This document shows, piece by piece, positions 21,001-24,000 of a stretch of DNA of 38,930 bases (its first letter is position 1; each line of letters starts with the position of its first letter). The stretch lies in the IMG/VR virus record IMGVR_UViG_2545824708_000026, one strand, 5' to 3'. This DNA is from a virus. Its lineage: Duplodnaviria; Heunggongvirae; Uroviricota; Caudoviricetes. The position numbers are program-made.

Positions 21001-24000
21001 CTTTTGGACTCCAGCTAACGTAGCCATCAAAGCGATCGGTGTTAGGTTTCCCGCCATCCAGATATTCAACCAGATAGCCTTCGTCCTCGCCGTTTTCTCC
21101 GGCAGGAAGCTGCCAGCCACGAAAATCGTTATATGCCTGTCTCGTCATCGGAAAGGCGTTAATCAGTTTTACGCCAATATGCTGGGTCATAAAATTACCT
21201 ATAGAGTTGGGAATAAAAAGCCCCGCATCGCGAGGCTCATTAAATGGACTTTGTGATTTGCAAAAAAATTATTTCAGGCACTGAGTCCTGATGTACTCCT
21301 GCAGGTAGTTAACCTGCGCGGTTATCCTGTCGATTCCACTTCTGAGACGGTAATAATTGAGTTCAGCATCTGCTGTAAGTCTTGGGCTTTCTCCATCGCC
21401 CATGCTGCTGGCTCCGGTCGTTGACTTTGCACAGGTGGCGGCGACTTGCAGGCGCTTACGACCAGCAGAAACATCAGCACGGAGGCTTTCGATAGTCGCG
21501 TTAGCATCAGCAAGCTCCTTTGTGTATCTGGCGTCGAGTTCTGCTACATCACGTTGACGCTTCTGCATGTCAGCAATTGTGGATGCGGCCTTATCGCGCT
21601 GCTCTTTGTAGGCGATTGCGTTATCACGGTAATGATTAACAGCCCATGACAGGCAGACGATGATGCAGATAACCAGAGCGGAGATAATCGCAGTTACTCT
21701 GCTCATTGCTGCCCCCACAAACAGACTTCACGCTCAATCTCACGGCGAGTCATCAGCCCTTTCCATTGCTTACCGCCAGCGTATGTCCAGCGACGTAGCT
21801 GGTCACATGCGCCCTTGATATCGCCCTGGTTGATTTTGCGAAGAAGCGTCGATGTTCTGAAATTTCCTGCGCCCACGTTATAGACGAACGAATAAAGAGC
21901 GCCGCGCGTTGTTTCCGGTATATCGACTTTGATGTACGGGTTAATTTGTCTGGCGACCGTGGCAAGGTCTTTATTCAGGAGGGCTTTGCATTCTGCTTCG
22001 GTATACGTTTTACCGAGCATGATGTCTTTTCCGGTGTGTCCGTGACATACAGTCCATACACCAACAATATCTTTGTATGGTATGTAGCTGACACCTTCCA
22101 GACCATCGTTACCACTTGGGCCAGTGATTAACACAGATGCTATAGCAATAGCCCCGCCACTTATCGCCGCTATTACGCTATTTCGTAGTGCCGGTGACAT
22201 TGCCATTCAATCTGTCCTCGCGCTCTTTGCGCTTGTAGTACCAGTTGATGCCAAATGTGCCGACAGTACAAAGAATACCAATGATGACAGCCCAGTCATT
22301 CAGGGAGAGAATGCCACCCATCGCAGTCAGTCCTCCGAAGCTGTAACTGAACCATTCTCTGATTTTGTCCATACGGTACATGCTCTACCCCTTCATTGAG
22401 GGGATTTGCTCTATTTAATTAGGAATAAGGTCGATTACTGATAGAACAAATCCAGGCTACTGTGTTTAGTAATCAGATTTGTTCGTGACCGATATGCACG
22501 GGCAAAACGGCAGGAGGTTGTTAGCGCAACCTCATGCCACCCGCTTTCACGAAGGTCATGTGTAGAAGGCCGCAGCGTAACTATCACTGATGAATTCAGG
22601 ATAGCCAGTGGCTACGGCTCAGTTATGGTGCTGGTTAACGGACTTGAACCGCTACCCATTCGCTTACAAGGCGACTGCTCTACCATTGGAGCTAAACCAG
22701 CATGTTTGGCGGGACAGCGTGGACTCGAACCACGATAAGAAGGTTAACAGCATTCCGTAATGACCTTTATACGACTGACCCAAATAAAAAAAGCCACCGT
22801 TGCAACTTAAGAGTCACTAACGGCAGCTTATGCGAATAGTGTTGCTCATTTGCTCAATGATGTCAACACGTTCTATGCTACATGTTTAATTTTCTCTACA
22901 CGTTTCCGGTTTTTAAACGCACTATCCAGAACTGGGTAAATCATAAACAACGAAGCATTGAGGATTTCGTCAACTTCCCGGCGACAGGTTGCGAGCGATG
23001 GTTTTTGAATACGCCCGCCGCCCCGGCATAACATCTTGCGAGGTCTTGCGACACGATGATAGTAAGATGCAATGGCATGCTTGGAAGATCCATGAGCGTA
23101 GTAGCTGAGGAGGATGCCAAAGGCTTTCTTGTCAATGCACATGACGGAATCGACGACCTGAGAAATCAACATTCCATCATCATCATTACACATTGGCCTT
23201 GTCATAACTCTTCCCGGCTCTACGCTCTCCATGAACTTCGCTATTACGCTGCTCATGCGCTTTTCCAGACGACCTGAATAAACCCATGCGCCCCACAGTT
23301 CAAGCCAGCCATTCAGCCAATCGTGCTGTTCTTTGGTGAGGTTTAGTTCTCTTATGCTCATCGTCTTCCCCTCTTGCCCTGTTTGACCATCAGGACGCCG
23401 TTAACTATTACGTGACGCTCGCCTTTTCTGTCTCGGTTGTACTTGAGCACTGTTCCTCTTGCGCAGGAAAGCATCCTCGCCACTTCGGTCTGATTGCCTC
23501 GTGTCTAGATAAGAAGCTCTGGTATCGTTTGAATTGTGGCGTTCATACGTTCTCCAGTTCGGTGATTTTTATTCCAAGCCGTCCGCCTGGTACTTTCACA
23601 CCACGAATTACGCGAATGTCATCGAATTGCTCGTCGTCTTCCGCAAATCCGGCGTGGATAAGGGAGTCGAGTAAACCTTTCAGGATGTTGTCGAGGTCGC
23701 GGCGGCGGGAGTCTGGAACGTCTGCGATGACTTTGATGCGGAGTCGTGATTTGGTGAAAATGTCTAACTTAAGTTGGCGGATGATTTGCTGAACGTCTTT
23801 TCGGTATTTCTGGCCTTTATCGCTGATGTAGTATTGGCTTCCCCGTCTTCGCCAGTAGGTATTCACCGACGGTGGGTACGGAAGCACAAACTGATATTCG
23901 TTCATTGGACAAACACCCTCCCATTGTTAACCAATTTTTTAAGGGTAAGCACAATGGCCCGATCCATTTCAGCCCTTCGCTCTTCCCTGCTCATATCTCT

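What the first reader, a model, noticed from the sequence alone, without database searches (positions are those of the whole stretch)
23505..23507. In-frame amber (TAG) codon at codon 14 of ninH
The minus-strand reading MNATIQTIPELLI*TRGNQTEVARMLSCARGTV... aligns with lambda NinH on both sides of the stop (lambda: TIPDMLVEAYGNQTEVARRLKCSRGTV), with the stop where lambda has Glu (GAG to TAG would be one substitution). The gene keeps its ATGA overlaps with rusA upstream and Q downstream, so it was recently intact.
Basis: seen in the sequence. Interest (0 to 1): 0.45.

Follow-up and report, generated by a model that had tools for sequence, protein, structure and literature searches.

The report
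Amber stop knocks out prophage ninH
A single C-to-T change has turned glutamine codon 14 of the small, non-essential phage gene ninH into a stop codon in a P22-like prophage of E. coli; this is ordinary prophage gene decay, with the mild curiosity that the same stop also occurs in a second, unrelated prophage lineage.

Summary
On the minus strand, ninH starts at 23546, has TAG at 23507..23505 (codon 14) and ends at 23358. It keeps ATGA overlaps with rusA and Q.

The ancestral codon is CAG (Gln), not GAG as in lambda, so the change is a C-to-T transition. The stop lies before the Fis-like helix-turn-helix, so this is a null allele. Neither phage tRNA (Thr, Asn) is a suppressor.

The window matches E. 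coli 179100 (GCA_000356905.1) at 100% over the 18,019 nt compared; that stretch does not include ninH. It is a P22-like prophage at argW.

Sister prophages 99.8-99.95% identical over 5-6.5 kb have CAG. No complete E. coli genome (5,426) or phage record (50,697) carries the TAG, against about 830 records with CAG.

The same TAG does occur in a second nin-module lineage. Seven of nine loci shown carry it, from six assemblies. It sits on an otherwise identical 1.5-kb haplotype, with at least three different genes immediately upstream. The site is therefore recurrently polymorphic and ninH loss is tolerated.

The window's prophage also has a TAA at tailspike codon 25, so it is probably defective.

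Verdict: a real, low-novelty nonsense pseudogene. An assembly artefact is not excluded. Interest is low.

The parts
23358..23546 (-). ninH pseudogene: 62 codons plus stop. ATG at 23546..23544 and TGA at 23360..23358.
   Evidence: With Q restored at codon 14 it matches PF06322 at E = 8.3e-25. Relatives carry an intact 62-aa gene.
23505..23507 (-). In-frame amber codon TAG at ninH codon 14, derived from CAG (Gln) by a C-to-T transition at window position 23507.
   Evidence: The sister prophage L143 has C here.
23358..23483 (-). Residual 41-codon ORF downstream of the stop. It starts at GTG 23483, with an internal ATG at 23474. It lacks helix A and the start of the HTH, including N18.
   Evidence: the PF06322 match covers profile positions 23-60 only. 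No SD precedes the GTG, read directly from the sequence. Residue roles are taken from PMC7166090.
23543..23905 (-). rusA (Holliday-junction resolvase, 120 aa). Its TGA overlaps the ninH ATG.
   Evidence: PF05866. It is 100% identical at protein level to the E. coli 165 copy.
22873..23361 (-). Late antiterminator Q (162 aa). Its ATG overlaps the ninH TGA. It has its own GAGGGG Shine-Dalgarno 6 nt upstream of the ATG.
   Evidence: PF06530. The exact protein is indexed in 104 blocks of the public collection.
22626..22781 (-). Phage tRNA-Thr(tgt) and tRNA-Asn(gtt) between Q and the lysis genes. Neither is a suppressor.
2611..4851 (-). Tailspike gene with ATG at 4851. It has an in-frame TAA at 4779..4777 (codon 25), derived from AAA (Lys). 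The remaining ORF (695 aa from GTG 4698) starts at position 51 of the 113-position Head_binding profile.
   Evidence: The source assembly annotates the 695-aa product as END32290.1.
1009..1083 (+). Host tRNA-Arg(cct), argW, the attachment site of the prophage. The integrase ORF follows at 1209..2426.

Best explanation
The window is a P22-like (Lederbergvirus) prophage integrated at argW. It matches E. coli 179100 (GCA_000356905.1). Its ninH gene has a true nonsense mutation: CAG (Gln14) became TAG through a C-to-T transition.

ninH encodes a small Fis-like, dimeric DNA-bending protein. It is made from the early-right (nin) transcript between rusA and Q.

Translation should stop after 13 residues, before the helix-turn-helix (residues 17-38). 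No functional NinH is made; this step is inferred. A re-initiated 38-41-aa fragment would lack helix A and N18 and is expected to be inactive.

Q keeps its own Shine-Dalgarno sequence, so late-gene activation is probably little affected; this is also inferred. ninH is dispensable for plaque formation, so the lesion is neutral or nearly so.

The change is recent in this lineage, because sisters 99.8-99.95% identical over the 5-6.5 kb compared still have CAG. It accompanies a second point nonsense mutation in the essential tailspike gene. The simplest picture is therefore an early-stage decaying, probably non-infectious, prophage.

There is no recoding. The phage has no suppressor tRNA, and all its other genes compared with relatives read through normally, apart from the tailspike TAA and a TGA it shares with relatives (37334..37336).
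For: - Codon and frame were read directly.
- NinH family membership is supported at E = 8.3e-25.
- Relatives have CAG at the aligned base. In 122 related copies the only internal stop is this TAG, in two overlapping contigs (L009/L010); two other copies end one codon early at R62.
- Nearest sisters: L143 differs at 3 of 6,489 nt and has CAG; L165 differs at 7 of 5,510 nt and has CAG.
- The allele with Gln restored is on at least 1,000 contigs.
- A 36-nt TAG-spanning probe found nothing in 5,426 complete E. coli genomes or 50,697 phage records. It also found nothing in GTDB species representatives or JGI metagenomes.
- The phage tRNAs are Thr(tgt) and Asn(gtt) only.
- The second nonsense, tailspike AAA to TAA at 4779, is absent from the closest relatives.
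- All other structural and early genes align full length with relatives, without stops or frameshifts.
- NinH biology comes from PMC7166090: HTH at residues 17-38; N18, R30, T32 and K35 needed for DNA binding; a C-terminal truncation is non-toxic; a precise ninH deletion still plaques, but with small plaques.
- The source match is 100% over 18,019 nt to APZJ01000053.1. That stretch covers window 1-18,019 and does not include ninH.
Against: - No reads were available, so a base-call or assembly error cannot be excluded. ninH is a repeat shared by co-resident lambdoid prophages, and many draft assemblies break inside it.
- The same TAG exists in another lineage. This shows that the site is not a random one-off. 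It also leaves open import by a very short conversion tract, or a chimeric consensus.
- Loss of function and the small effect on Q are inferred, not measured. The RNA fold around the Q start was uninformative (z = +0.58).
- The host genome could not be checked for a suppressor tRNA.
Confidence: 0.7

Rival explanations
1. Sequencing or assembly artefact. The true sequence of this prophage would be CAG. The T would come from a base-call error, or from a collapsed or chimeric consensus with a second, co-resident lambdoid prophage that carries the lineage-2 TAG allele.
For: - The source is a 2013 draft assembly.
- ninH and its flanks are about 97.5% identical between the two lineages. They match exactly from 73 nt upstream to 30 nt downstream of the TAG, so a single-SNP bubble could be mis-resolved.
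- Many assemblies break contigs inside ninH.
- The companion tailspike TAA is a singleton here. It is also a singleton in E. coli 1-176-05_S1_C2, whose sister colony C3 has the intact gene. It sits at a T4A3 homopolymer boundary.
Against: - There is no frameshift or other anomaly in 38.9 kb.
- The flanking markers at -73 and +30 are those of the window's own haplotype.
- The TAG allele is demonstrably real elsewhere, in six assemblies. A genuine C-to-T change at this site therefore does occur.
- No second ninH copy from strain 179100 was seen, although this could not be searched directly.
Confidence: 0.15
2. A real mutation that is not random decay. Either codon 14 is a mutational hotspot (TCCAGA to TCTAGA, that is CCAG/CTAG), or ninH inactivation is positively selected in lysogens because NinH, a Fis mimic, is toxic when expressed.
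For: - The same C/T polymorphism occurs on two different haplotypes with no linked change. In lineage 2 the 1,557-nt module is identical apart from this base.
- In the window's own lineage, three near-identical prophages each carry a private protein-changing ninH mutation: Q14stop, G17S and V33A. That is 3 of 10 variable sites in 5,042 nt falling within 189 nt (binomial p about 0.005, computed post hoc by hand). G17S is on 1 contig and V33A on 6.
- NinH overexpression is toxic in proportion to its DNA binding (PMC7166090).
Against: - Across 122 copies the protein is highly conserved, with synonymous variant types outnumbering non-synonymous ones (30 vs 23) and most N-terminal replacements seen once.
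- With 7 possible transition-to-stop sites, two independent hits on the same site has a chance of about 1 in 7.
- The nin region should be silent in a repressed lysogen (established lambda biology).
- The site is not a canonical Dcm site (CCWGG).
- The clustering statistic is post hoc and rests on small numbers.
Confidence: 0.1
3. The TAG was imported from the lineage-2 amber allele by a short recombination or gene-conversion patch, rather than arising de novo in this prophage.
For: - Lambdoid and P22-like nin regions are highly mosaic.
- A donor allele with the identical TAG exists in E. coli.
- The dam gene of the window shows three private changes within 28 nt, which looks like a conversion tract.
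Against: - The tract would have to be shorter than about 103 nt, because the nearest lineage-2 markers (-73 and +30) are absent from the window.
- No other lineage-2 marker appears in the compared ninH region.
Confidence: 0.04
4. The stop is read through. The host would carry an amber or ochre suppressor (for example a glnV/glnU- or lysT-derived one), or context-dependent read-through would supply enough full-length NinH, so the gene would still function.
For: - TAG replaces a Gln codon, which is what a supE-type suppressor or near-cognate tRNA-Gln would insert.
- The next base is A, a relatively weak termination context in E. coli (from memory of Poole et al. 1995; not tested here).
- The second stop, TAA, replaces Lys, which a lysT-derived ochre suppressor would restore. 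This is speculation.
Against: - There is no suppressor tRNA in the window.
- About 830 complete-genome E. coli records carry this allele with CAG and none carries the TAG; listed phage records are annotated with intact ninH.
- Only one TAG and one TAA interrupt genes in 38.9 kb.
- Natural read-through is usually below 1%.
Confidence: 0.01

Closest known systems
Bacteriophage lambda NinH (Pfam PF06322), a Fis-like nucleoid-associated protein (Chakraborti et al. 2020, PMC7166090)
   Same: - It is homologous: 53% identity to a lambda-type 68-aa NinH and a full-length PF06322 match.
- It occupies the same place in the nin region, just upstream of Q.
- The DNA-contact residues N18, R30, T32 and K35 are all encoded downstream of the stop.
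   Different: - It belongs to a 62-aa allele class, not the 68-aa class.
- It follows rusA rather than ninG.
- It is interrupted by TAG at codon 14, so the protein cannot be made without suppression.
Lambda ninH deletion phage (small plaques; cited in PMC7166090)
   Same: NinH is lost while the phage remains able to propagate. This is consistent with the TAG allele persisting in several mosaic prophages.
   Different: Here the lesion is a natural point nonsense mutation, not an engineered deletion. The phenotype was not tested.
Classical conditional-lethal amber mutants of lambda and P22 (for example lambda Sam7 and P22 amber mutants), grown on supE/supF hosts
   Same: Both are single-base changes to TAG in a phage ORF.
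   Different: - This is a wild clinical isolate, not a laboratory stock.
- The gene is non-essential.
- There is no evidence of a suppressor host.
- The companion stop is ochre, not amber.
Stop-codon-recoded phages (TAG read as Gln in some crAss-like and Lak phages)
   Same: TAG sits where relatives have Gln.
   Different: - There is no phage suppressor tRNA.
- There is a single TAG, not genome-wide use.
- Close relatives use CAG.
- The host is E. coli with the standard code.

This prophage is not a member of that class.
Point-mutation pseudogenes in defective E. coli prophages (for example DLP12, Rac and Qin of K-12)
   Same: Accessory and structural genes are inactivated in a resident prophage. 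Here that means ninH (TAG) plus the tailspike (TAA).
   Different: The decay is at a very early stage. There are no deletions, IS insertions or frameshifts in 38.9 kb.

Membership tests
Phage NinH family (PF06322) | Sequence match to the family profile over its full length | tested here: met
   With codon 14 read as Gln, E = 8.3e-25 and 86.9 bits against a cut-off of 29.8, covering profile positions 1-60 of 60.
Phage NinH family (PF06322) | Location in the nin region immediately upstream of Q, translationally overlapped with its neighbours | tested here: met
   There are ATGA overlaps with rusA and with Q. The gene order matches that of E. coli 165, CUS-3, E212 and ET729.
Phage NinH family (PF06322) | Fis-like HTH with DNA-contact residues (lambda N18, R30, T32, K35) | tested here: met
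   All four residues are encoded in frame downstream of the stop and align with lambda-type NinH. Their roles are taken from PMC7166090.
Phage NinH family (PF06322) | Uninterrupted ORF giving a 60-68-aa protein | tested here: not met
   TAG at codon 14. It is therefore a pseudogene or null allele of a family member, not a functional member.
Phage NinH family (PF06322) | Dimeric DNA binding and bending activity | not testable with these tools
   This needs purified protein or in vivo assays.
Suppressor-dependent or recoded phage gene (TAG read as an amino acid) | A suppressor tRNA encoded by the phage | tested here: not met
   ARAGORN and Rfam find only tRNA-Arg(cct), Thr(tgt) and Asn(gtt).
Suppressor-dependent or recoded phage gene (TAG read as an amino acid) | Repeated in-frame use of the same stop codon across many genes, conserved in relatives | tested here: not met
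   Only one TAG interrupts a gene in 38.9 kb. Close relatives have CAG.
Suppressor-dependent or recoded phage gene (TAG read as an amino acid) | A suppressor tRNA in the host genome | not testable with these tools
   Only the 38.9-kb window could be read. The rest of GCA_000356905.1 could not be retrieved.
Nonsense pseudogene in a decaying prophage | A sense codon at the same position in the closest relatives, on an otherwise near-identical sequence | tested here: met
   L143 differs at 3 of 6,489 nt and has CAG. L165 differs at 7 of 5,510 nt and has CAG.
Nonsense pseudogene in a decaying prophage | Other inactivating lesions in the same element | tested here: met
   The tailspike has AAA changed to TAA at codon 25. 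A TGA at 37334..37336 is shared with relatives.
Nonsense pseudogene in a decaying prophage | The stop is supported by the primary reads | not testable with these tools
   There was no access to reads.

The most novel reading that the evidence does not exclude
Codon 14 of ninH is a recurrently hit site. The identical CAG-to-TAG change arose, or was fixed, independently on at least two haplotypes. Sister prophages also carry private HTH substitutions (G17S, V33A). Together these would mean that resident prophages are repeatedly selected to lose the toxic Fis-mimic NinH, or that TCCAGA/TCTAGA is a previously unnoticed point-mutation hotspot in E. coli prophages.
Probability: 0.12. Interest if true: 0.4.

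Novelty: already known. Interest (0 to 1): 0.14.

Why it matters
As a single nonsense allele of a dispensable phage gene, it matters little.

Its practical value is for annotation. ninH at 23358..23546 and the tailspike at 2611..4851 should be marked as pseudogenes, and the prophage should be treated as probably non-infectious.

There is also a small biological point. NinH-null alleles persist and move between mosaic P22-like and lambdoid prophages. This agrees with NinH being an accessory Fis mimic that improves yield but is not required.

If the recurrence at codon 14 proved to be selection or a hotspot, it would offer a natural handle on what NinH costs a lysogen.

Tried and rejected
- **Phage-encoded suppressor tRNA.** Rejected. 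Only Thr(tgt) and Asn(gtt) are present.
- **Genome-wide recoding or many amber codons.** Rejected. A six-frame comparison with eight related loci found only ninH TAG and tailspike TAA in true coding frames. The many other 'stops' were in off-frame or antisense ORFs.
- **Truncated-NinH proteins as markers of TAG carriers.** This failed. The window's 41- and 38-aa products are not in the protein collection. The 38-aa 'partial NinH' entries (P0016) turned out to be contig-end truncations, not stops.
- **Looking up the window's Dam protein to find sister contigs.** Uninformative. The protein is indexed in 32,262 blocks of the collection.
- **RNA structure that might couple Q translation to ninH translation.** None was better than shuffled sequence (z = +0.58).
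- **Dcm hotspot.** The context TCCAGA is not CCWGG, so this was not adopted.
- **The 60-nt probe.** On its own it could not separate TAG carriers from alleles with another mismatch. It was replaced by the 36-nt probe, in which every 28-mer spans the TAG.

Full report
**Observation**

On the minus strand the reading frame starts with ATG at 23546..23544 and reads MNATIQTIPELLI. It then meets TAG at 23507..23505 (codon 14). It continues in frame as TRGNQTEVARMLSCARGTVLKYNRDRKGERHVIVNGVLMVKQGKRGRR to TGA at 23360..23358.

The rusA stop (TGA 23545..23543) overlaps the ninH start. The ninH stop overlaps the Q start at 23361.

With Gln at codon 14 the product matches Pfam PF06322 (Phage_NinH) over the whole profile, at E = 8.3e-25.

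**What the element is**

The window starts in yfdC. It then runs through tRNA-Arg(cct) (argW, 1009..1083) into an intS-type integrase and a complete P22-like genome:
- tailspike, ejection proteins, tail needle, coat, scaffold, portal and terminase;
- a holin and lysozyme lysis cassette (the lysozyme N-terminus looks like a signal-anchor-release type on reading the sequence, which was not tested);
- two tRNAs, then Q, ninH and rusA;
- a NUMOD4/HNH endonuclease, roi, ninF/E, dam and ninB;
- P/O, cII, cro and cI;
- a lambda-like gam-bet-exo arm.

It is 100% identical over 18,019 nt to contig APZJ01000053.1 of GCA_000356905.1. That stretch covers window positions 1-18,019 and does not include ninH. 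The truncated tailspike product of that assembly is END32290.1 from 'Escherichia coli 179100'.

**Ancestral state**

Every close relative aligned has CAG (Gln) at this codon. These include E. coli 165, CUS-3, E212, ET729 and 120 of 122 related copies pulled from IMG/VR and other loci.

That is a more distant allele class. The event was therefore CAG to TAG, a C-to-T transition at window position 23507.

The same protein with Gln restored (allele with R40) is on at least 1,000 contigs of the public protein collection.

**How recent and how private**

The nearest sister is GCA_001283365.1 (L143). It differs from the window at 3 of 6,489 nt and has CAG. A second sister, GCA_001283505.1 (L165), differs at 7 of 5,510 nt and also has CAG.

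A 36-nt probe was designed so that every 28-mer spans the TAG. Its results were:
- nothing in 5,426 complete E. coli genomes or 50,697 phage records, whereas about 830 E. coli records carry the allele with one mismatch to a 60-nt probe;
- nothing from an exact pattern scan of GTDB species representatives or JGI metagenomes;

**A second lineage with the same stop**

The IMG/VR contigs led to a different nin module: a Roi variant, YbcO, a RusA variant, ninH ending ...GRP, and a 207-aa Q. Its ninH differs from the window's at 5 of 189 nt, yet it has the identical TAG.

A look-up of that lineage's Roi protein returned nine places.
- Seven carry TAG: GCA_048120845.1, GCA_001283405.1, GCA_001277575.1, GCA_001265535.1 (two contigs), GCA_000691105.1 and GCA_053257955.1.
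- Two carry CAG.
- The 1,557-nt roi-to-ninH segment is otherwise identical in all nine.
- The gene immediately upstream differs: lambda P, or DnaB of 458 or 478 aa.

This has three consequences.
- The amber allele is real and heritable in at least that lineage.
- It has moved between mosaic phages, so a ninH-null is tolerated.
- The first base of codon 14 is polymorphic on two different haplotypes with no linked change.

The gene has seven transition-to-stop sites, so a second independent hit at the same site has a chance of roughly 1 in 7. That is suggestive but not remarkable. A conversion tract from lineage 2 would have to be shorter than about 103 nt.

**Consequence for the protein**

Lambda NinH is a dimeric, Fis-like DNA-binding and DNA-bending protein.
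- Its HTH spans residues 17-38.
- N18, R30, T32 and K35 are needed for binding.
- The C-terminal strands are needed for dimerisation.
- Overexpression is toxic in proportion to DNA binding.
- A precise deletion still gives plaques, but small ones (PMC7166090).

The stop at codon 14 precedes all of these elements. The only downstream starts are GTG at 23483 and ATG at 23474. They lack a usable Shine-Dalgarno sequence, and their product would lack helix A and N18. I infer a null allele.

Q has its own GAGGGG sequence 6 nt upstream of its ATG. No significant RNA structure occludes it. I therefore infer little polarity on Q. None of this was measured.

**No recoding**

The only tRNAs in the window are Arg(cct), Thr(tgt) and Asn(gtt). 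Six-frame comparisons with eight related loci found no other TAG in a true coding frame and no frameshifts.

**State of the prophage**

The same comparison uncovered a second nonsense codon. The tailspike gene starts at 4851 and has TAA at 4779..4777, where all relatives have AAA (Lys25). The relatives include two with the identical local haplotype.

The remaining ORF begins at position 51 of the 113-position head-binding domain profile. Tailspike is essential for P22-like virions according to established P22 biology. The prophage is therefore probably non-infectious.

This TAA is a singleton in strain 179100. It is also a singleton in E. coli 1-176-05_S1_C2, whose sister colony C3 has the intact gene. 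There it lies in a different tailspike that shares about 170 nt of identical sequence around the stop. It lies at a T4A3 boundary. I could not decide between a recurrent real mutation, recombination and a sequencing artefact.

A third in-frame stop, TGA at 37334..37336, is shared with relatives. PGAP flags it as an internal stop in strain ESBL 15.

**An unexplained pattern**

Among the window and its two sisters there are 10 variable sites in 5,042 shared nt. They fall as follows:
- three in the 189-nt ninH, each private to one genome and each protein-changing (Q14stop, G17S, V33A);
- one at the base immediately before the ninH ATG;
- five in dam;
- one synonymous change in the lysozyme gene.

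The binomial probability of three or more sites in ninH is about 0.005, computed post hoc by hand from the counts. G17S is on one contig and V33A on six.

Against any claim of selection, the 122-copy sample shows strong conservation, with synonymous variant types outnumbering non-synonymous ones (30 vs 23).

**Verdict**

The finding is a correctly observed, genuine-looking CAG-to-TAG nonsense allele of a known, non-essential phage gene. It sits in a prophage that also carries a nonsense codon in its tailspike. It is an ordinary kind of event.

The residual uncertainty is mainly about read-level truth in a 2013 draft assembly, which I put at about 0.15. The only mildly interesting aspect is that the same stop recurs in a second lineage.

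Noticed in passing
window 4777..4779 (- strand), within the tailspike gene 2611..4851: There is a second premature stop in the same prophage. Tailspike codon 25 is TAA where all relatives have AAA (Lys), which truncates the head-binding domain. The identical TAA, on the same ~170-nt local haplotype, occurs in a different tailspike in E. coli 1-176-05_S1_C2, whose sister colony C3 is intact. It is absent from 5,426 complete E. coli genomes.
   Followed up: partly
window 37334..37336 (+ strand), in the reading frame 37241..37984: A third in-frame stop (TGA) splits a 247-codon ORF of unknown function. This stretch is 100% identical to E. coli ESBL 15, where PGAP marks the gene 'internal stop'. 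It is therefore a lineage-wide feature, not private to this genome.
   Followed up: partly
window 23449, 23498, 23507 and 23547, compared with L143/L163 and L165: Three near-identical sister prophages each carry a private protein-changing ninH mutation (Q14stop, G17S, V33A). There is also a change one base before the ninH ATG. That makes 3-4 of only 10 variable sites in 5 kb.
   Followed up: partly
L178-L186 (second nin-module lineage); L009/L010: The same ninH codon-14 TAG is the majority allele (7 of 9 places shown) in a different Roi-YbcO-RusA-NinH-Q(207 aa) module. It is found in six assemblies, with at least three different genes immediately upstream.
   Followed up: yes
window 20711..21190 (- strand): A 159-aa ORF downstream of the lysis cassette, between it and the terminase genes, matches the Tad2-like (Thoeris anti-defence 2) domain PF11195 (E = 6e-22).
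   Followed up: no
window 24170..24679 (- strand): A NUMOD4/HNH homing-endonuclease-like gene lies between roi and the DUF1364/YbcO-like gene. It is present in only some relatives, which suggests a mobile insertion. The adjacent 91-aa gene is called 'frameshifted' in strain ET729.
   Followed up: no
window 33824..33882 and 38179..38267 (+ strand): Rfam matches above the gathering score: Lambda_thermo (the cIII thermoregulator, 88.5 bits) and sRNA-Xcc1 (69.3 bits). The latter lies just upstream of the terminal ant-like gene.
   Followed up: no
window 26574..26601 (dam gene): Three window-private substitutions fall within 28 nt of the phage dam gene, relative to both sister prophages. This looks like a short gene-conversion tract.
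   Followed up: no
L011-L016: Many draft and metagenome assemblies end contigs inside ninH, producing 'partial NinH' proteins of 32-40 aa. The gene acts as an assembly-breaking repeat among co-resident lambdoid prophages.
   Followed up: yes
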